From Patellaria atrata CBS 101060 (Eukaryota): a DNA stretch of 64,000 nt. The DNA lies in assembly GCA_010093705.1 (NCBI GenBank), contig MU006091.1, positions 124,001 to 188,000 on the forward strand, read 5' to 3'. Positions 5,642 to 14,749 of the stretch are shown here, piece after piece. The translations under genes were made by a program, and so were the position numbers. Within the stretch, counting starts at the first letter, position 1. Every line of letters starts with the position of its first letter. The notes under the pieces were generated by a model. That model saw only the letters and a list, made by a program, of their open reading frames with translations. It was not told the origin of the DNA and searched no databases.

Positions 5642-6520
5642 GGAGGGGTTTAGGGGGGAGAAAAGAAAGGGAGGGAAAGGGAAGGGATTGGGAGGCGTCA
5701 TGGAGAAGTATGAGGTGATGAATTGGAATGGTTATTTTGCATCTGGGTTTTATGGATGGGGTATTGACTTGGCTTTGGTTCCTTGTTTTACTGACTAACT
5801 CAACATCTTTTGTGCTCTTTTGTTTTTTTTTTTCTTGTACTGTATTATATAATACCATCCCATTTCCTTGTCAGATGATTGCTGTACTTATTTGTGGACT
5901 TCGCCTCGTCTGACGCTCCTCATTCGTGCACGCGATGAGCTTTGAGTCTCTCGTCTGATACTGACTGGGTGGCGACAGCGTAGGGAGGATCTGTGATTTG
6001 GATCTGCGTCTGCAGTTGCTGTTGATCTCTCATTGCCCATATATTTACTCTTATACAGTACTATACGCTTACGTTCAGAGTCCACACCCGGTACGAAAAC
6101 TTCCGACTTGCGTCTTTGTCTAGTGTAAGTGCGCTGTACAGCAGGTCAGAAACGTGACTGACAGGCGTCGAGGGAAGGGGATGCTTGGTATTGTACGTGT
6201 GAGTGCAAAGTGTACGTACAAAGTTCTGGGGCTAGGCCTTCTGGCCGACCGTACGGGGATTTTGTCTGTACGGTACATATCATGGCGGGCCAAAGCTGAT
6301 CGATATGTATACCGCAACATTCACAAGCGAGGAAAGGTGGATGCGGGCAAGAAGGATGGAAAAGCTAGGAACATAGCACTACTATAAGGGAAGGAGTAGA
6401 TAGATTCATTTCCATCCTATCGCTATGTAAAATTTTACTTTTCTGCTTTTCGCTTTTAAAACATCCCTTCATCTACTCATGATCTACGTGATGCTTGATA
6501 AAAGCAGTATTTGGCCCGCT

Positions 6521-9946: not shown

Positions 9947-10897
9947 TCAATCTCCTCTTGAGTCTTGTATAACTTTGAGTGCTTCCCTTTCTTCTCCCAT
10001 ATCGCCGTAAAGCCCTAATATCGTAATACAGCGACCTTTTCCCTTCTCCCCCTGCTGCTTAGCTTGTTTCAACGCTGTCGCGAGGTCTAAGAGAATAGTG
10101 TTTCTGATCCTAGTAACCCGGTGTTGTTGCGCTACGATGAATGGATGTTCCTGGCCAGTCTGTAATATTTGGTGCAAAATATACGTGTAGTCTTGCACAT
10201 GCTTTCGAAGTTTATGGGTGGGAACATATGTAGATTCTAGCTCATCCTCATTCTCATATTCATCGTCCTCATCGTCCTCATCCTCGTCTTCATCCTCTGT
10301 GCTCTCGGGTATAACGTTTGCGTCACTGTCTGATGGCTCCACATGCTTATTACCTACCGACTCCAGCATCAGCCTGCCCTCTAACTCCCCTATTCGAGCT
10401 TCAGTCTTCAGTAATTCCCACGCCATAATTCTACGCTTCCTAATCTCTTCCCTGCGCCGGAATAGCTCATCGGCCTCTACTTTCCTCTGCACTACCACTC
10501 TCCTCACATCCTCAACAGACTTGCCGAAACCCATCAACCCTACCCGGACACCCTCCACCTTCTCCTCGCCGCCCTTCAAGCTTCCCCCTAGACCCAAGAA
10601 GTCCTGGTAATTTGAGTTCACCAGGTCTAGGAGTTCGCGGTTGAGCAGCTGGGTGCGGGAGCGTAGCTCGGCCCGCAGATCCTCGAGTGTTTGGTGGCGG
10701 TTTCGTAGGCTGGAAAGATAGATCGAGGGGGAGAAATCCGGCGCGACAAAGGCGGAGCGCGGAAGAGGAGTTGGGAAGGGAAGGGTGCATTCGTCATCCT
10801 CGGATGAGGAGTGGGAGGAGGTCGAGGTGGAGGAGGAGGAGCGGCGGGCAGTACTGTGCGAGGTCGCCTCCAAACCTATGGAGAACTTTGCGGACAT
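9947..10897 (-). CDS. COG2: Conserved oligomeric Golgi complex subunit 2-like protein
   Basis: LPFP.PL.RSAF..PDFSP..YLSSLRNRHQTLEDLRAELR...ELLDLVNSNYQDFLGLG motif typical of the fungal COG2 N-terminus. Confidence 0.85.
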   Translation of the reverse strand: MSAKFSIGLEATSHSTARRSSSSTSTSSHSSSEDDECTLPFPTPLPRSAFVAPDFSPSIYLSSLRNRHQTLEDLRAELRSRTQLLNRELLDLVNSNYQDFLGLGGSLKGGEEKVEGVRVGLMGFGKSVEDVRRVVVQRKVEADELFRRREEIRKRRIMAWELLKTEARIGELEGRLMLESVGNKHVEPSDSDANVIPESTEDEDEDEDDEDDEYENEDELESTYVPTHKLRKHVQDYTYILHQILQTGQEHPFIVAQQHRVTRIRNTILLDLATALKQAKQQGEKGKGRCITILGLYGDMGEEREALKVIQDSRGD

Positions 10898-11053
10898 TTA
10901 TTGATTGGAAGATTCTGGTGTGCTTAGTACGCTTCAAGTTTGCATCCGTAGGACTTGGGCATGGAAACTCCTGAGGACGATTGTAATGCTGGAATTTCCT
11001 ATTTCATGGTGATACCTCCATACATCCACGACATCCAAATGGGTGAGGTGCGG

Positions 11054-11066
11054 CAGTGTGGCCAAC
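11054..11066 (+). repeat. Left terminal inverted repeat of the hAT element (preceded by TSD AGGTGCGG at 11046-11053)
   Basis: CAGTGTGGCCAAC, perfect inverted match to 14491-14503. Confidence 0.96.
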
Positions 11067-11320
11067 GATCCGTATCGATAAGGTATTAGTATTCTCGGTA
11101 TTTCATCGGTATTGTATCGAATATCATAATACCTTAACAATACCCTTGGCATTTTAAGATTTGTTTATATTCTTTAGAATTCAACTAAAATATTATCGTT
11201 TTCTTAGAAATTTAATTAAAATAAAGATACTCTTCGTACGAAGGGATTGTATAGCTATGAACAACATCTATAGCTGTTCTAAGATAGAAGGCACGAGGGC
11301 GTGCCTACGTGCCTGCCTGT

Positions 11321-11401
11321 CCACCTGTCTACTGGCCCACCTGTCTACTGGCCCACCTGTCTACTGGCCCACCTGTCTACTGGCCCACCTGCCTACCTGC
11401 C
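11321..11401 (+). repeat. 16-bp tandem repeat (CCACCTGTCTACTGGC)x4 plus a degenerate partial copy, inside the transposon upstream of the cargo gene
   Basis: Perfect units start at 11321, 11337, 11353 and 11369; CCACCTGCCTACCTGCC follows. Confidence 0.95.
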
Positions 11402-11548
11402 AGTTTGTACAAAATAGATCTTCTTTTGAATTTCTCAATTTCTCTTCTTCTCTTCTCTTCTTCTCTCCTTCTCAATCTTTGATTTTAGTAACTCAAAGTG
11501 TAAGTACTCAGCTTAAACCTATCGTACGAAGGCTAATAATACTATAGT

Positions 11549-12082
11549 ATGGCCAATATGCAAGTAGTTCTCTATAACCCAGCGATCACGGCTGCCGCTC
11601 ACGCGAACCGCAACCCGGTTCTACTTGTAACACAGCAGCAATTGGCTCCGTGGTGTCACAGCCCACAGAATAGAGCACTTCTGGCCGTCGGTGGAGGTGT
11701 TGATGTTGAGTTCGTACGCGACTCTATCACACCCGAGCAGATTGGATCTCATAGGCAGTCATATGTCAATGGGATTCTTATCCAGTCTCGTGGAGGTGAT
11801 GTTGATCCTTGTGCGGCTTGTCGTACGAGAGATTTCCGTCCCTTCCTTAGTTGTCACCGCGCTGAGGGACACTTTGGCGGAACATGCGCCAACTGCAAAT
11901 GGCGCGACCATGCAGCACGCTGTTCCGTACGAGCTGGTGGTCCAGATGAGCCTGCTCAAGGAGCCAGGGTGCTTGGACCTGGTTCAGGGGTTGACGGAGC
12001 TGACGGCACCGCCCCTGGGAATGCTATTGTGCTGGACGACGATGAGGGGCTTCCTCCCCAAAATGCTATAATCATTGGTTGA
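11549..12082 (+). CDS. Transposon cargo gene: 177-aa DUF3716-like six-cysteine (putative zinc-binding) protein
   Basis: QSRG...PCAAC-x10-C-x10-CANC-x8-CSV matches the DUF3716 pattern as I remember it (PF.SC...GHFGG.CANC); ORF lies wholly between the TIRs and converges on the transposase. Confidence 0.8.
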   Translation: MANMQVVLYNPAITAAAHANRNPVLLVTQQQLAPWCHSPQNRALLAVGGGVDVEFVRDSITPEQIGSHRQSYVNGILIQSRGGDVDPCAACRTRDFRPFLSCHRAEGHFGGTCANCKWRDHAARCSVRAGGPDEPAQGARVLGPGSGVDGADGTAPGNAIVLDDDEGLPPQNAIIIG

Positions 12083-12219
12083 GCAGAGCTTCGTACGAAG
12101 TATTCTTTGGCGTTTGAGCGTTCTGGCGTTTCGGTGTTCTGCTTTGCCTAGCTATCCAGGGCTGTTGGTAGCACTCAGACGTGATCTGTACCTTTACGTG
12201 TGTCTGAGATCAGTAGCCA

Positions 12220-14322
12220 TTAGGTGAAACTAAACAGATCGTACGGACCTTTCAATAAATTCTTTTGTTTTGCCCAATGTTTAAGACATTCAGTATGTTC
12301 TAACTCTCTTGAACTTAAGCGTGATCTTTCCCATGGTACCGTACGACGAGCTGCTGAAAACACTCGTTCTGGTTCATCGCTCATTGCTGGAATTGAGAGG
12401 ATCTCAATTGCAAGTATAGATAATCGTGGAAACCGAGCTCTTTGAGTATCAGTTAACCACCATTTAATAGGTGAAATGTCCCCAATATCGTACGGATCTT
12501 GGTTGATATAGTCTTCAAACTCATCTCCACTTAAGGGAGCCTTATTAAACCACTCAATTTGATTAAGAACACGTTCAAAATCAGTCATATTCTCAGGTGG
12601 AGTTCTTCTCTTTTCTTCGTACGATGCTGATAACGGTACTGAACAGGTTTTACTCCATTTTTCCCAGTATAATCTAGCAAGCTTAATCATCTGCTCGCCT
12701 TTCCCTCTTTCCTTCTTCCAACCTTCCCTAATAAGCTTTGTACGATAGTAAGGAGTAAAGATTGTCGCAAGAATATGGCAAGGTGAGGTAAGAAGTGTAG
12801 AATAATACTTCTCAAAAAGCTGTAAAGCTTTATGAAGCTGAGGTCCAAAGTCTTTCTTATATATACGTTCATACTTTCTTAAAAGAATATCAAAACCAAG
12901 CATTGTACGAAGTGTCATACCGAATGTTAGAGAATGGCCTTGATTTAGAAGCGTTGCCTCATAAAAAGGGCGAAGAATTGTATGGATCGTACGAAGCTTT
13001 TCCCAATCTTTATGCGAAAGAGAATCTTCTTCAAGATCACTATACCATCTCTTAACATACGAGTCAATTTCTTCTTCTTTACTTAGCGCAATATCTATCA
13101 TGATATACCAGCTATTCCATCTCGTACGATTATCAAGTGGAATCATTCTCTCTGCTCTTGTGGTAAAATCTTTCAAATGACGTGTAGAGCTTCGAATATG
13201 AACTATAATATTATGAAGCTTTCCAAGTGGCCCTACCGTACGGAAGGTTGACTGTCTCTGCTTTCTTAAGCTGGCTTGTCTTATCTCATATTCCTCTGTT
13301 GATACTTCAAGTGTAAGACTACTTAGCCCTTGAGATTCAGTCTGTTCCTCAGCGTCGTACGACTCAAGTAAGTCTAAGTCTATTGTACCTGCAAAGAGAA
13401 AGGTTTGTACAACCAAGTTAATAATATGGCCTATACATCGAATTCTTTGAGATGAATAGTCCCATATCAGCTCTTGACTCTCTTGAAGATATTGACTAAG
13501 TAACTGGCAAAGCTTATCATTCGTGGAAGCATTATCACCAATAATAGTACCAAGCCTTCGTACGATACCATAGTCTTGAAGAACTGGAAGAAGTATCTCA
13601 AGTTGTTCACTAGATGAATGGTTTCCTACTTCTTTAAGACCAAGTAATGCTCTTTGAGGTATCTCCTCCGTACGATCAATGAAATGCGCGATAATACCAA
13701 GAAGAAGTATCCGATTTGGAGAAGTCCAGATATCAAGTGAGATATGGATGTTTGCAGGCGCTGATTGAAGTTGTTTTCGTACGAGATCTTTTTGGAAAGA
13801 GAAAGAAGCTGTAATTCTTTTTGAAATTGTTGAGTGTGAAGATGGAATAAAGCTCTCTGACTGCGGGTTAAGAGCTAGACAAAATGCGCGAAATTCAGGC
13901 CATTCAATCATACGGAAGGGGAGTCTTCGTACGGTAAGTAGTTGAGATAGCGCTTTATCAATAATATTTTGATTAAGAATCTTTTGTAAGACCAGCTGAT
14001 CCAGCTCATTTAATCCAGTATGCTCGCTTGACCGGTAAAGATCTAATAGTCCTTGGAAAGCGTCTTCCCCTATCTTCGTACGAGGCTCTTCTAAAGCTAT
14101 ATTGTGTGTTTTAAGAAGATGCTTCTTAAATTTTGTACTAATTGTTGTATTATATGAACAATTATATTTACACTGATAGAGAGGCTTGTTTTGATCGTTT
14201 CGTGGAGGGTCTCCTATAGTTTGTATACGCGTATGTTTCCAAAGAAGGGATCTTGTTGGTCGTACGATAGTAGATGATGGTTCTGAGGTAAAACTTATTA
14301 TTGAATCAATTTCAGAAGCCAT
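12220..14322 (-). CDS. hAT transposase, 700 aa, apparently intact
   Basis: BED-like finger (YQCKYNC...KHLLKTH), ISLDIWTS, IIGDNASTND, RCIGHIINL, TRWNSW, C-terminal dimerisation motif SIPAMSDEPERVFS. Confidence 0.96.
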   Translation of the reverse strand: MASEIDSIISFTSEPSSTIVRPTRSLLWKHTRIQTIGDPPRNDQNKPLYQCKYNCSYNTTISTKFKKHLLKTHNIALEEPRTKIGEDAFQGLLDLYRSSEHTGLNELDQLVLQKILNQNIIDKALSQLLTVRRLPFRMIEWPEFRAFCLALNPQSESFIPSSHSTISKRITASFSFQKDLVRKQLQSAPANIHISLDIWTSPNRILLLGIIAHFIDRTEEIPQRALLGLKEVGNHSSSEQLEILLPVLQDYGIVRRLGTIIGDNASTNDKLCQLLSQYLQESQELIWDYSSQRIRCIGHIINLVVQTFLFAGTIDLDLLESYDAEEQTESQGLSSLTLEVSTEEYEIRQASLRKQRQSTFRTVGPLGKLHNIIVHIRSSTRHLKDFTTRAERMIPLDNRTRWNSWYIMIDIALSKEEEIDSYVKRWYSDLEEDSLSHKDWEKLRTIHTILRPFYEATLLNQGHSLTFGMTLRTMLGFDILLRKYERIYKKDFGPQLHKALQLFEKYYSTLLTSPCHILATIFTPYYRTKLIREGWKKERGKGEQMIKLARLYWEKWSKTCSVPLSASYEEKRRTPPENMTDFERVLNQIEWFNKAPLSGDEFEDYINQDPYDIGDISPIKWWLTDTQRARFPRLSILAIEILSIPAMSDEPERVFSAARRTVPWERSRLSSRELEHTECLKHWAKQKNLLKGPYDLFSFT

Positions 14323-14490
14323 TATTTAGGAGAAGAACCACCTTATCGTACGTAAGGGTGACAAATTCTATTAAATTGTGGGTTTCGCTGTATTAAGCGA
14401 AGTATTGTTAAAGTATTATTAAGGTATTTATCGATATCGAGCCGATACAATACTAATCCGTATTCGATAGTTATCTAATACTAAAGTATT

Positions 14491-14503
14491 GTTGGCCACA
14501 CTG
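14491..14503 (-). repeat. Right terminal inverted repeat of the hAT element (followed by TSD AGGTGCGG at 14504-14511)
   Basis: GTTGGCCACACTG. Confidence 0.96.
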
Positions 14504-14749
14504 AGGTGCGGTCACCAAAGGTGCACGGGCCATATGCAGCTGAGAGTGAGCTTCCCCTCAATATTTTTGTGCAAGAGATATTCACAATAATTTAACTGGT
14601 AGATAAAGACTGTTACTAATTAATCGTCTTCACGATCGTCCACCACAAAACTCCCACCATATCATAGGTTCCGATGATGTAACAATCAAGAATAAGAACT
14701 AGACACACTTGACCTCGGTCCGTTTTCACCTCTCCTTCATCCCATTCAG

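What the first reader, a model, noticed from the sequence alone, without database searches (positions are those of the whole stretch)
11054..14503. Candidate self-marking transposon system: hAT transposase + six-Cys cargo protein + element-wide lattice of palindromic sites
Seen: one TIR/TSD-bounded unit contains (i) an intact transposase, (ii) a separate convergent gene for a small DUF3716-like Cys6 protein, and (iii) 21 evenly spread CGTACG palindromes confined between the TIRs. Established: canonical hAT elements encode only a transposase and keep their binding motifs subterminal, and Arabidopsis VANDAL transposons encode VANC proteins that bind motifs in their own element to cancel silencing. 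Inference: the cargo protein binds YCGTACGR and coats the whole element at roughly nucleosome-scale spacing. This could shield it from DNA methylation, heterochromatin or RIP, or could regulate its transcription. I know of no described fungal equivalent.
Basis: partly seen in the sequence, partly recalled or inferred. Interest (0 to 1): 0.93.

Follow-up and report, generated by a model that had tools for sequence, protein, structure and literature searches.

The report
Transposon studded with evenly spaced palindromes
A jumping gene in a fungus, and many relatives in soil fungi, keep the same 8-letter palindrome about every 140 bases along their whole length, even inside their genes, probably as landing sites for a small extra protein they carry, which may be how they stay switched on.

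Summary
Window 11054-14503 is an intact hAT transposon with a 16-nt TIR and the 8-bp TSD AGGTGCGG. It encodes a 700-aa transposase and a convergent 177-aa DUF3716 protein. It carries 21 CGTACG sites (core TCGTACGA), 6.1/kb against 0.21/kb in the rest of the window.

In the transposase gene, 14 of the 18 codon positions that could encode the motif do so. Synonymous shuffling gives a mean of 0.8.

Of 80 related elements fetched from soil metagenomes, 40 carry the same motif at the same homologous codon slots, with a modal spacing of 140-160 bp. A 14-member outgroup has none.

All 14 elements with the DUF3716 gene have a dense lattice (5.3-8.8/kb). Of 20 demonstrably cargo-less elements, 9 keep a lattice that is mostly thinner and 8 have lost it. 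The lost sites leave CpG-to-TpG relics.

So the lattice is ancient, is selected at the DNA level, and is coupled to the cargo, but a cargo gene in cis is not required.

Which protein binds the motif, and what that binding does, remain untested. The cargo fold matched no solved structure, and I found no RNA data. Eight literature searches found no description of this arrangement.

My best reading, at about 0.45, is that the cargo protein binds the lattice and keeps the element's chromatin open.

The parts
11046..11053 (.). Left copy of the 8-bp target-site duplication, AGGTGCGG
   Evidence: Read directly. The script found a perfect 8/8 match to the right copy.
11054..11069 (+). Left terminal inverted repeat, CAGTGTGGCCAACGAT
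   Evidence: pair I9: 16 nt, 94% complementary to 14488-14503. The cargo-less relative L051 has a similar TIR, CAGTGTGGCTTTCGAT.
11070..11145 (.). Left subterminal region with short GTATCGATA / AATAC-type repeats. It holds no CGTACG and is presumed to bind the transposase.
   Evidence: I1, I4, I5, I10, D5. In relatives, ATCGAT clusters sit at both element ends. The first lattice site lies 181 bp from this end.
11232..11243 (.). 12-bp perfect palindrome CTTCGTACGAAG. It is the first lattice site and lies upstream of the cargo promoter. An identical copy sits at 12089-12100, just after the cargo stop codon.
   Evidence: pair I21 (100%).
11287..11414 (+). Tandem 16-bp repeats (unit GCCCACCTGTCTACTG) upstream of the cargo gene. 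Possibly a promoter element.
   Evidence: family D1. One run holds a copy 48 bp shorter here (joints table). The function is inferred.
11500..11547 (+). Putative 48-nt intron in the cargo 5' leader (GTAAGT ... CTAAT ... AG). It contains a lattice site at 11523.
   Evidence: Read from the sequence. There is no RNA evidence. Inference only.
11549..12082 (+). Cargo gene. It encodes a 177-aa DUF3716 protein with a basic folded core (residues ~10-128, Cys6His2) and an acidic disordered tail that ends in NAIVL...NAIIIG. The frame can also be read from M4.
   Evidence: Three lattice sites lie inside the CDS, at 3 of the 4 positions the protein permits. The collection's copy of this protein is 174 aa, and the Atlas holds the sequence from residue 4 on.
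12220..14322 (-). hAT transposase gene: 700 aa in a single open frame.
   Evidence: It holds 14 lattice sites in all three frames.
11235..14352 (.). Lattice of 21 CGTACG sites (consensus TCGTACGA) with a mean spacing of 156 bp. It runs through both genes and the non-coding DNA but stops 151-181 bp short of each end.
12739..12909 (.). Two decayed lattice sites (TGTACG at 12739 and 12904) that fill the only long gap. Further one-transition relics lie at 13056, 13909 and 14230.
   Evidence: In one search both appear as RT slots that the protein permits but the DNA does not use. On the coding strand they read CGTACA.
14400..14487 (.). Right subterminal region with GTATT / ATCGAT-type short repeats and no CGTACG
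   Evidence: D5, D19, I4, I5, I10.
14488..14503 (-). Right terminal inverted repeat
   Evidence: pair I9.
14504..14511 (.). Right copy of the 8-bp target-site duplication, AGGTGCGG

Best explanation
This is an autonomous member of an old and widespread clade of fungal hAT transposons.

Besides the usual ends and transposase, these elements maintain a lattice of the 8-bp palindrome TCGTACGA, roughly one site per 140-160 bp. The lattice covers the whole body of the element and is written into coding sequence through synonymous codon choice. Many members also carry a small accessory gene for a DUF3716 zinc protein.

Most likely mechanism: the accessory protein is made by the element itself or by sister copies. 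It binds the palindromes through its basic Cys6His2 core, probably as a dimer, and so occupies the element at about one site per nucleosome-length of DNA. Its acidic tail and conserved hydrophobic C-terminus then recruit host factors. These keep the element's chromatin open, unmethylated and transcribed. In effect it would be an element-wide activator or anti-silencer. When the accessory gene is lost, selection on the sites relaxes and their CpGs decay to TpG/CpA.

Shown here:
- the element's anatomy;
- DNA-level selection on the motif;
- its positional conservation across relatives;
- its even spacing;
- its statistical coupling to the cargo gene;
- decay of sites through CpG transitions.

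Inferred:
- that the cargo protein is what binds the motif;
- that it binds as a dimer;
- that it can act in trans;
- the direction of the effect (activation or protection rather than repression).
For: DNA-level selection:
- In the window's transposase, 14 of 18 permitted positions carry the motif. Synonymous shuffles gave a mean of 0.80 and a maximum of 6 in 20,000.
- At conserved Arg-Thr dipeptides, lattice-bearing relatives use CGTACG in 25 of 30 cases at slot 660 and 32 of 39 at slot 399. Lattice-poor relatives with the same dipeptide use it in 0 of 20 and 0 of 12.

Ancient and shared:
- 40 of 80 metagenome relatives (33-51% transposase identity) have at least 3 sites/kb.
- The sites sit at 13 recurrent homologous slots.
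- A 14-row outgroup has 0-0.5/kb.
- In every lattice-bearing locus TCGTAC/GTACGA is the most over-represented 6-mer (P 1e-6 to 1e-44). Lattice-poor loci show no alternative motif.

Spacing: the median is 140 bp and the mode 140-160 bp over 284 gaps in 13 cargo-bearing elements. In the cargo gene, different elements place a site at different nearby codons, which looks like turnover under a density constraint.

Coupling to the cargo:
- 14 of 14 cargo-bearing elements are dense, against 9 of 20 cargo-less ones (Fisher p 6.6e-4).
- Slot integrity is 71% in cargo-bearing elements, 31-40% in cargo-less ingroup elements and 0% in the cargo-less outgroup.
- Cargo and transposase divergence correlate (Mantel r 0.80, p 2e-4).

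Decay: 58 of 63 one-mismatch variants at the slots in lattice-bearing loci are CpG transitions. TTGTAC/GTACAA is enriched in L014, L049, L033 and L080.

The cargo looks like a DNA-binding regulator:
- It has 8 conserved Cys/His.
- Its folded core has a median net charge of +8 and its tail -6, with 26 of 30 tails negative.
- Residues 10-125 are modelled with confidence.
- Recombinant NCU05718 binds double-stranded TTAGGG directly (PMC4650311, abstract and passages). Its Fusarium orthologue is reported to carry DUF3716 (PMC10776026, passage).

The motif can act positively in a Dothideomycete. The 19-bp element of the P. fijiensis cyp51 promoter has the core TCGTACGA. Insertions that repeat it were found only in isolates with reduced sensitivity to DMI fungicides (PMC6637983, passages).

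The transposase does not need the lattice. Intact transposase frames persist in lattice-free relatives, and no set of transposase columns tracks the lattice apart from the slot codons themselves.
Against: - No binding data of any kind exist.
- Nine of 20 cargo-less elements keep a lattice. Five have intact frames, and L035 has full density at 6.5/kb. The lattice can therefore be maintained without a cargo gene in cis, and the trans-supply explanation cannot be checked in metagenome contigs.
- Phylogenetically independent support is thin: 4 pairs, all in the same direction, p 0.125.
- The motif never varies, so there is no co-variation between protein and site.
- Neither the whole cargo model nor the Cys-domain model matched any solved DNA-binding fold.
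- The only sequence hint in the PDB is a non-significant match to a ZZ zinc finger (E 5.7). From memory, that class binds proteins rather than DNA.
- The 80 loci are the best-scoring of 558 candidates and come from unknown hosts.
- Cargo detection could miss a very divergent gene, or one lying outside a short contig. 47 rows could not be assessed.
- The direction of the effect (activation or repression) rests only on the acidic tail and on the P. fijiensis analogy.
Confidence: 0.45

Rival explanations
1. Host-factor array. TCGTACGA is the site of a host transcription factor. One candidate is whatever reads the same core in the Pseudocercospora fijiensis cyp51 promoter. The element accumulates these sites to borrow host activation or to keep its chromatin open. 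The DUF3716 protein does something else, for example reading histones, bridging to the transposase or modulating the host factor.
For: - Multiplying the TCGTACGA-containing 19-bp promoter element is tied to reduced DMI sensitivity in a Dothideomycete, and no transposon protein is implicated (PMC6637983, passages).
- The lattice persists in 9 of 20 cargo-less elements, 5 of them with intact frames.
- The motif is invariant across transposases only 33-51% identical.
- There is a weak, non-significant ZZ-finger resemblance in the Cys domain.
Against: - Promoter-type factor sites would be expected to cluster upstream of genes. They would not be expected every ~140 bp through coding DNA while avoiding the ends.
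- This model does not predict that loss of the cargo goes with loss of the lattice.
- It also does not predict that all 14 cargo-bearing elements are dense.
- Outside the element the window has only 13 sites in 60.5 kb, with no obvious host regulon.
Confidence: 0.2
2. Transposition architecture. The lattice is read by the transposase or by a transposase-cargo complex. It condenses or marks the full-length element so that its ends synapse efficiently, or so that full-length copies are preferred over internally deleted ones. On this view it is a mobility device and not a chromatin or expression device.
For: - From memory, hAT transposases bind multiple short repeats through BED-type fingers and act as oligomers.
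- The lattice is strictly confined between the ends. In the bounded elements, 21 sites lie inside against 1 outside in 3,000 bp of flank for the window copy, and 24 against 0 for L019.
- Palindromes suit dimeric binders.
- An internal lattice would be lost from deletion derivatives.
Against: - A separate, classical subterminal motif already exists: ATCGAT clusters at both ends in relatives and short repeats in the window.
- Lattice sites avoid the terminal 100-300 bp.
- Relatives with intact transposase frames and TIR/TSD boundaries have no lattice (L067, L072, L055).
- No transposase region co-varies with the presence of the lattice.
Confidence: 0.12
3. Self-restraint. The cargo does bind the lattice, but as a repressor or heterochromatin nucleator that limits copy number. 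Alternatively it sets up a state that hides the element from genome defence during the sexual cycle.
For: The anatomical and comparative evidence is the same as for the best explanation. Nothing in the sequence fixes the direction of the effect. The conserved C-terminal (N/D)(P/A)IVL after an acidic stretch could be a docking motif for a repressive partner.
Against: - An acidic tail on a basic DNA-binding core is the usual layout of activators (from memory).
- The same core motif behaves as a positive element in the cyp51 promoter.
- In the probable source-organism DNA runs (X1/X2), contigs identical to the element have a word depth of about 6,400-6,500 against 427-470 for the flanks. That rough measure suggests a thriving multicopy family.
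Confidence: 0.1
4. RNA-level signal. Because the motif is a palindrome, UCGUACGA is present in transcripts of both strands. It could serve RNA processing, export, or evasion or triggering of RNA silencing.
For: - The two genes are convergent, so read-through would put every site into RNA.
- The motif contains a weak 5' splice-site-like GUACG (from memory).
- One site lies in the putative 5'-leader intron.
Against: - Strict 8-bp palindromy and CpG-specific decay point to double-stranded DNA and a dimeric binder.
- Sites also lie upstream of the cargo promoter and downstream of both stop codons.
- The lattice persists whichever way the cargo gene is oriented.
Confidence: 0.05
5. No function. On this view the motif excess is a by-product of codon usage, amino-acid conservation, mutation bias or an ancestral internal repeat.
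For: Some slots sit at conserved dipeptides (RT, VR, SY), which favour near-motif sequences.
Against: - Synonymous shuffles that keep the protein and codon usage give 0.80 sites against 14 observed.
- Relatives with the same dipeptides but no lattice use other codons.
- Non-coding DNA carries sites at the same spacing.
- The only extended similarity around the sites is the motif itself.
Confidence: 0.01

Closest known systems
VANDAL (Mutator-like) transposons of Arabidopsis and their VANC anti-silencing proteins (PMC5735166 and PMC10398659; abstracts seen in the listing)
   Same: Both are DNA transposons that encode a non-transposase protein alongside a short motif accumulated in the same element family. 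The proposed logic is also the same: the element marks itself in a sequence-specific way so that an element-encoded protein can counteract silencing.
   Different: - Kingdom, transposon superfamily (hAT rather than MULE) and protein family all differ. Pfam finds only DUF3716 here.
- VANC sites lie in non-coding regions according to the abstracts. Here the sites run through coding DNA by synonymous codon choice, at an even ~140-bp spacing.
- The motif is invariant across a deep clade and has not diversified.
- Binding and hypomethylation are shown for VANC and untested here.
Canonical hAT elements (Ac, hobo, Hermes, fungal Restless; from memory)
   Same: 8-bp TSD, short TIRs, a single-ORF transposase with the C-terminal hAT dimerisation domain, and short subterminal repeats.
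   Different: - They have no second gene and no internal motif lattice.
- In this clade the lattice is separate from the subterminal motif.
- 13 of the 80 fetched relatives, plus the window element, carry the accessory gene.
Two-gene DNA transposons with a DNA-binding accessory protein: the Myb-like ORF of PIF/Harbinger and TnpA of En/Spm (from memory)
   Same: A transposase plus a separate small DNA-binding protein encoded by the same element.
   Different: - Those proteins bind subterminal sites and are needed for transposition.
- Here the candidate sites avoid the ends.
- Relatives appear to remain intact without the cargo or the lattice.
- No Myb/SANT domain is found.
REP9, an IS3EU-type class II transposon of Zymoseptoria tritici with two DUF3716 genes (PMC8232023; passages read)
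   Same: A Dothideomycete DNA transposon that carries DUF3716 passenger genes of unknown function. This shows the domain recurs as transposon cargo.
   Different: It belongs to a different superfamily, is 7.9 kb long and has four genes. The passages read say nothing about a motif lattice, and I could not fetch its sequence to check.
The 19-bp repeat element of the Pseudocercospora fijiensis cyp51 promoter (PMC6637983; passages read)
   Same: It has the identical 8-bp core TCGTACGA, in a fungus of the same class. Repeats of the element in the promoter go with reduced sensitivity to DMI fungicides. The paper's title presents this as a new mechanism.
   Different: It is a promoter-proximal tandem array in a host gene, not a dispersed lattice. 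The binding factor is unknown, and no link to a transposon or to DUF3716 has been shown.
NCU05718 of Neurospora crassa, a direct double-strand TTAGGG binder (PMC4650311). Its Fusarium orthologue PSC58 is said to carry DUF3716 (PMC10776026).
   Same: It is the only experimental hint that a DUF3716-containing protein binds a specific double-stranded DNA sequence.
   Different: It is a host gene with a different target sequence, and the binding domain was not mapped. I did not verify the domain content of NCU05718 myself.
CENP-B boxes in alpha-satellite DNA (from memory)
   Same: A short binding motif recurs at roughly nucleosome-scale intervals and is read by a transposase-derived DNA-binding protein.
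   Different: That is a host centromeric satellite, not a mobile element. The periodicity there comes from tandem duplication, not from codon-level selection inside genes.

Membership tests
hAT superfamily of DNA transposons | 8-bp target-site duplication | tested here: met
   AGGTGCGG at 11046-11053 and 14504-14511.
hAT superfamily of DNA transposons | Short terminal inverted repeats | tested here: met
   16 nt, 94% complementary (I9).
hAT superfamily of DNA transposons | Transposase with the C-terminal hAT dimerisation domain | tested here: met
   PF05699 at E 4.7e-15, 55.6 bits against a cut-off of 21.4, residues 602-683.
hAT superfamily of DNA transposons | Conserved acidic catalytic residues and the CxxH motif of the RNase-H-like core | tested here: inconclusive
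   D197, D263, E601, E652, C296 and H299 are invariant in the 25-sequence alignment. Assigning them to the catalytic triad is from memory and was not tested by structure.
hAT superfamily of DNA transposons | N-terminal BED-type zinc finger | tested here: inconclusive
   C51, H68 and H73 are conserved in at least 90% of sequences. The window protein gave no zf-BED hit at E <= 0.1. PF02892 is precomputed for a few relatives.
DUF3716 (Pfam PF12511) | Profile match above the gathering score | tested here: met
   E 4.1e-12, 46.3 bits against a cut-off of 22, residues 76-128. All 30 aligned relatives match.
DUF3716 (Pfam PF12511) | Conserved Cys/His cluster | tested here: met
   C88, C102, C113, C116 and H108 are invariant. 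C91, C125 and H121 are conserved in at least 90% of sequences. Zinc binding itself is inferred.
VANC-type transposon anti-silencing system | A non-transposase protein encoded inside the element | tested here: met
   The same holds for 13 of the 80 relatives.
VANC-type transposon anti-silencing system | A short motif accumulated specifically in the element's own family | tested here: met
VANC-type transposon anti-silencing system | The protein binds that motif | not testable with these tools
   No protein-DNA tool was available. It needs EMSA, DAP-seq or ChIP.
VANC-type transposon anti-silencing system | Binding causes loss of DNA methylation and reactivation | not testable with these tools
   No methylome or RNA data are available. 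No RNA holder was listed.
VANC-type transposon anti-silencing system | Sequence homology to VANC proteins | tested here: not met
   Pfam finds only DUF3716 in the cargo and its 29 relatives. No direct comparison with a VANC sequence was made. The element may work like the VANC system, but it is not a member.
PIF/Harbinger-type Myb-like accessory protein | Myb/SANT-like DNA-binding domain | tested here: not met
   No such Pfam hit at E <= 10 in any of 30 members.
SBP-box zinc domain (binds a GTAC core; from memory) | SBP profile or fold | tested here: not met
   No Pfam SBP hit. The fold searches of either model gave no match.
ZZ-type zinc finger | Significant profile or fold match | tested here: not met
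   The only hit is dystrobrevin ZZ at E 5.7. There is no Pfam ZZ hit and no fold match.

The most novel reading that the evidence does not exclude
The lattice is a self-addressing code in nucleosome register, with one TCGTACGA per nucleosome-length of DNA. It is written even into the element's own genes by codon choice.

A transposon-encoded zinc protein of a fold not yet seen reads this code. Whichever copy makes the protein, it licenses every element that carries the code, keeping its CpGs unmethylated and its chromatin active.

This would be the first anti-silencing system described in fungi. It would also be the first case in which a mobile element maintains regulatory sites inside coding sequence across its whole length. 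Cargo-less lattice bearers would then be free-riders on the protein. The same protein-motif pair may have been co-opted at host promoters, such as the TCGTACGA repeats of the P. fijiensis cyp51 promoter.
Probability: 0.25. Interest if true: 0.95.

Novelty: new variant of a known kind. Interest (0 to 1): 0.85.

Why it matters
Transposons are usually thought to keep their protein-binding sites at their ends, and to be passive targets of chromatin silencing in fungi.

Here a whole clade of hAT elements has kept an identical 8-bp palindrome at homologous codon slots. The transposases of that clade have meanwhile diverged to 33-51% identity. This is strong, long-lasting selection on DNA that lies inside protein-coding sequence.

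The finding gives three things:
- A concrete and cheap biochemical hypothesis for DUF3716, a widespread fungal domain of unknown function. The cargo-type family alone has 1111 representatives at E <= 0.001.
- A candidate fungal counterpart of plant VANC anti-silencing.
- A natural experiment, in elements with and without the cargo gene, on how binding sites and CpG decay interact.

It may also explain why the same core motif acts as a dosage-dependent positive element in a fungicide-target promoter of a crop pathogen.

If the ~140-bp spacing reflects nucleosomes, the system could be used to study how a sequence-specific factor is arranged along a chromatin fibre.

Tried and rejected
- **Own genome.** None is held, so copy number and trans-supply could not be examined there. 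The window itself holds only this one copy.
- **Earlier findings of the scan.** Three look-ups returned nothing.
- **Expression.** No RNA holder was listed. The two runs guessed to be RNA behaved like DNA when laid. Expression and the leader intron are therefore untested.
- **Homodimer prediction of the cargo core.** No verdict. This is not evidence either way.
- **Fold searches.** For the whole cargo model (pLDDT 75.7), Foldseek found no PDB match at E <= 0.001 and VIA-align found 0 of 48,161 chains with Z >= 2. For the Cys-domain model (pLDDT 70.8), Foldseek found 0 matches at E <= 10 and VIA-align again found 0 chains with Z >= 2. A missing match does not prove a new fold.
- **PDB sequence profile.** Only E 0.27 and E 5.7, neither significant.
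- **ESM Atlas.** Only unnamed DUF3716 clusters.
- **Scan of viral contigs with the cargo profile.** One locus with a 44-residue CxNCKWR-like match and 2 CGTACG sites in 8.6 kb. Uninformative.
- **Alternative lattice motifs in lattice-poor relatives.** None found. ATCGAT, which looked like a second palindrome, proved to be subterminal clusters.
- **Transposase residues that track the lattice.** None beyond the slot codons themselves.
- **Variation among copies in the runs.** None of the 40 differences listed falls inside a hexamer. About 1.5 would be expected by chance and 88 more rows were not shown, so I draw no conclusion.
- **Literature.** The searches were:
  - 'DUF3716': 2 papers.
  - 'PF12511': 1 paper, listing only.
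  - 'CGTACG' + 'transposon': 57 papers, 25 listed.
  - 'TCGTACGA': 317 papers, 30 listed.
  - 'hAT' + 'fungal' + 'transposase' + 'second ORF': 6 papers. The one I opened, on ToxB, was irrelevant.
  - 'CGTACG' + 'binding motif' + 'fungal': 33 papers, 15 listed.

  None describes this lattice or a link between hAT and DUF3716. Unlisted papers, subscription journals and bioRxiv supplements were not seen.

Full report
**1. What is at the locus**

Window 11054-14503 is a complete class II element. Two 16-nt terminal inverted repeats, CAGTGTGGCCAACGAT and its partner, are 94% complementary (I9). They are flanked by a perfect 8-bp direct repeat, AGGTGCGG (read; found again).

Inside lie two convergent open frames:
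- A 700-aa protein on the minus strand (12220-14322) with the hAT C-terminal dimerisation domain (E 4.7e-15).
- A 177-aa protein on the plus strand (11549-12082) with DUF3716 (E 4.1e-12).

The subterminal 80-90 bp on each side carry short GTATCGATA / AATAC-type repeats. Upstream of the small gene are four to five 16-bp tandem repeats (D1). There is also a sequence that looks like a 48-nt intron in the leader, but this is inference with no RNA support.

The closest named relatives of the small protein are 77% and 97%-over-42% identical paralogues from Patellaria atrata CBS 101060. The window therefore probably comes from that species or a close relative.

No whole genome is held for this window, and the window contains only this one copy.

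When contigs of two DNA runs of the probable source organism were laid on the locus, contigs identical to the element had a word depth of about 6,400-6,500. The flanks were at 427-470. A run labelled as another organism holds a near-identical copy whose flank differs from the window's. The depth ratio is a rough measure, but it points to a young multicopy family.

**2. The motif is real and is selected at the DNA level**

CGTACG occurs 21 times between 11235 and 14352, and 13 times in the remaining 60.5 kb. Shuffles of the whole window give a mean of 7.4 and a maximum of 17. It is by far the commonest 6-mer in the element.

The consensus is the 8-bp palindrome TCGTACGA.

The gaps run from 86 to 370 bp with CV 0.44. 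Only 6e-5 of random placements are that even, and none has a minimum gap that large. The single long gap contains two sites that differ by one CpG transition.

The 14 sites in the transposase gene fall in all three frames. They encode Arg-Thr, x-Val-Arg or Ser/Pro-Tyr-Asp/Glu.

The protein sequence allows the hexamer at only 18 places, and 14 of them are used. Two of the four unused places read CGTACA. Shuffling synonymous codons among identical amino acids gives 0.80 sites on average, and never more than 6 in 20,000 trials. The small gene uses 3 of its 4 permitted places (P 7.5e-4).

Codon usage, protein conservation and chance are therefore excluded.

**3. The lattice is a family trait**

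The transposase has no relative closer than 46% identity in the 5.8-billion-protein collection. A profile scan of JGI metagenome contigs still returned 558 relatives, of which the best 80 were kept.

In 40 of these 80, CGTACG reaches at least 3 sites/kb inside the transposase match. In 32 it is at most 1.1/kb, and 8 are intermediate.

In every lattice-bearing locus the most over-represented 6-mer is TCGTAC/GTACGA (P 1e-6 to 1e-44). Lattice-poor loci show no other motif of that kind.

I mapped sites onto a query-anchored alignment. They recur at 13 homologous codon slots, each shared by 16-39 loci.

At these slots the amino acids are often the same in both groups, but the codons differ:
- At slot 660, Arg-Thr is written CGTACG in 25 of 30 lattice-bearing rows and in 0 of 20 lattice-poor rows.
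- At slot 399 the counts are 32 of 39 against 0 of 12.

On a maximum-likelihood tree, a 14-row outgroup has no lattice, and the 67-row ingroup is a patchwork. At least 15 changes between dense and poor are needed.

Lattice-poor ingroup rows still carry relics. At the 13 slots, 134 of 214 reads lie within two mismatches of the motif, against 35 of 162 in the outgroup. That comparison is partly inflated by shared amino acids.

In lattice-bearing rows, 58 of 63 one-mismatch variants are CpG transitions. These are only 4 of the 18 possible single changes.

Some poor rows are enriched for TTGTAC/GTACAA, the double-decay product (L014, L049, L033, L080).

The simplest history is an ancestral lattice in the ingroup with many independent losses through CpG-to-TpG/CpA change. 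Established knowledge attributes that signature to deamination of methylated CpG. A RIP-like process cannot be excluded.

**4. Spacing**

Across 13 cargo-bearing elements, 284 gaps have a median of 140 bp and a mode of 140-160 bp. Few are below 60 bp (27 of 284).

Sites stop 100-300 bp (102-301 in four of the five bounded elements) short of the ends in bounded elements that keep a dense or moderate lattice.

In relatives those end zones hold clusters of ATCGAT at 10-20-bp intervals. That is the classical hAT subterminal pattern, and it is clearly a different motif.

In the small gene, different elements place a site at different neighbouring codons and frames: around residues 54-59, 89-96 and 126-127. 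This looks like turnover under a constraint on local density and not simple inheritance.

That ~140-160 bp is about one nucleosome repeat is my recollection and was not tested.

**5. Relation to the cargo gene**

A profile built from 30 cargo relatives finds the gene in 13 of the 80 loci as well as in the window. It is always downstream of the transposase but lies in either orientation. The sister elements L022 and L052 differ by an inversion of the cargo segment.

Cargo and transposase divergence correlate (Mantel r 0.80, p 2e-4, 13 sequences). There are some discordant pairs.

I scored an element as cargo-less if it met any of three criteria:
- at least 1,200 bp downstream of the transposase without a hit;
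- a TIR plus perfect-TSD boundary;
- ATCGAT clusters on both sides.

That gave 20 cargo-less rows. A further 47 rows could not be assessed.

All 14 cargo-bearing rows are dense, at 5.3-8.8 sites/kb. They represent 13 distinct elements, because L031 and L032 have identical transposases.

Of the 20 cargo-less rows, 9 have at least 3/kb, 3 are intermediate and 8 have at most 1.1/kb. Mann-Whitney gives p 1.4e-6 and Fisher p 6.6e-4, neither corrected for relatedness.

Slot integrity by group:

| Group | Intact sites | CpG-transition relics |
|---|---|---|
| Cargo-bearing | 118 of 167 | 11 of 167 |
| Cargo-less ingroup, intact frame | 40 of 128 | 29 of 128 |
| Cargo-less ingroup, degenerate frame | 31 of 77 | 29 of 77 |
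| Cargo-less outgroup | 0 of 49 | 2 of 49 |

Against a simple story:
- Five cargo-less elements with intact frames keep a lattice: L035 at 6.5/kb, L045 at 5.1, L005 at 5.0, L006 at 3.5 and L007 at 3.2 (L045 inspected).
- Only four phylogenetically independent contrasts exist. All go the same way, but p is 0.125.

So the cargo implies a lattice, but a lattice does not imply a cargo gene in cis.

**6. The cargo protein**

The family alignment shows several conserved features:
- a conserved N-terminal part;
- a Cys/His cluster with four invariant Cys, two Cys conserved in at least 90%, one invariant His and one His conserved in at least 90%;
- a low-complexity tail that usually ends in (N/D)(P/A)IVL.

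The core is basic (median net charge +8) and the tail acidic (median -6, negative in 26 of 30 members).

AlphaFold models residues 10-125 at about pLDDT 90 and leaves 131-177 disordered.

Neither this model nor a separate model of the Cys domain matched any solved structure. The PDB profile search gave only non-significant hits. Pfam finds nothing but DUF3716 in all 30 members.

The family is sizeable. It has 1111 representatives at E <= 0.001 and 113 at E <= 1e-30 among 1.84 billion 50%-identity clusters. Most are small stand-alone proteins.

Three papers bear on the domain or the motif:
- REP9, an IS3EU-type transposon of Zymoseptoria tritici, carries two DUF3716 genes (PMC8232023, passages).
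- Recombinant NCU05718 of Neurospora binds double-stranded TTAGGG directly, and its DNA-binding domain is unmapped (PMC4650311, abstract and passages). Its Fusarium orthologue is said to carry DUF3716 (PMC10776026, passage).
- The cyp51 promoter of Pseudocercospora fijiensis contains a 19-bp element with the core TCGTACGA. Repeats of this element were found only in isolates with reduced sensitivity to DMI fungicides (PMC6637983, passages).

**7. Mechanism**

The data require a reader of double-stranded TCGTACGA whose benefit to the element depends on even coverage of the element's body.

The cargo protein is the best candidate, for four reasons:
- It is the only non-transposase product.
- It has the layout of a basic zinc-binding module with an acidic tail.
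- It never occurs without the lattice.
- Its absence goes with decay of the sites.

Intact transposases persist without any lattice, and no part of the transposase tracks the lattice.

A host factor remains a serious rival, because lattices persist in some cargo-less elements and the motif never changes.

I put 0.45 on 'the cargo binds the lattice and keeps the element open and unmethylated'. The other readings are:

| Reading | Confidence |
|---|---|
| Host factor reads the motif | 0.20 |
| Transposition architecture | 0.12 |
| Cargo binds the lattice as a repressor | 0.10 |
| RNA-level signal | 0.05 |
| No function | 0.01 |

**8. Comparison and novelty**

The element is a member of hAT and the cargo is a member of DUF3716. 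Both memberships were tested and met.

It resembles the VANDAL/VANC anti-silencing system of Arabidopsis in its logic (PMC5735166 and PMC10398659, abstracts). It is not a member of that family. The protein family, transposon superfamily and kingdom all differ, and the sites here are dispersed through coding DNA at regular spacing.

Eight literature searches found no description of this lattice or of a hAT-DUF3716 association.

I rate it a new variant of a known kind: a DNA transposon with an accessory sequence-specific protein. It has features without a described precedent.

Interest is high because the pattern is strong, widespread and directly testable.

Noticed in passing
window 11232-11243 and 12089-12100: Two identical 12-bp perfect palindromes, CTTCGTACGAAG, bracket the cargo promoter and CDS (I21). 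The cargo segment is inverted between the sister elements L022 and L052. Lattice palindromes may therefore act as inversion or exchange points for the cargo cassette.
   Followed up: partly
window 11287-11414: Four to five tandem 16-bp repeats (GCCCACCTGTCTACTG) lie upstream of the cargo gene. One run holds a copy 48 bp shorter here (joints table), so the repeat number varies among copies.
   Followed up: no
window 11054-14503, runs X1-X4: A run labelled as a different organism (X3) holds pieces of the element with few differences (1-10 per piece of 293-1321 nt). Its flank differs from the window's at 14504. Either the two labels are one species or the element moved between species recently.
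   Followed up: no
L024, L025 (also L056, L078): Copies riddled with stop codons (16-18 in the transposase frame) still keep a lattice, full in L024 and L025 at 7.2-7.3 sites/kb. TCGTACGA contains no CpA or TpG dinucleotide, so CpA-directed RIP (from memory) would leave it untouched. The motif may have been chosen for that property.
   Followed up: partly
L045 540-1400 and 3640-4000; 4304-6648: This cargo-less lattice bearer has long subterminal tandem repeats on both sides of its transposase. It sits next to a second, unrelated hAT transposase that has only one CGTACG.
   Followed up: partly
L001-L080, transposase matches: Lattice-bearing transposase genes are more AT-rich than lattice-poor ones (median GC 0.415 against 0.47). 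After masking the motif they also have a lower CpG observed/expected ratio (0.705 against 0.825).
   Followed up: no
window 42459 and 42526; 60291 and 60734: Outside the element, CGTACG is still about twice as frequent as shuffles predict: 13 sites observed where about 7 would be expected. Two pairs of sites lie close together. I did not check whether host promoters use the motif.
   Followed up: no
window 9947-10897 (-): The element is inserted 157 bp from the ATG of a 316-aa host ORF with an acidic, low-complexity middle part. Any effect of the insertion on that gene is unknown.
   Followed up: no
cargo protein residues 131-177 and relatives (alignment A2): The extreme C-terminus is conserved as (N/D)(P/A)IVL after an acidic stretch in most relatives. 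From memory this resembles a short docking motif, for example of the SUMO-interaction type. It was not tested.
   Followed up: no
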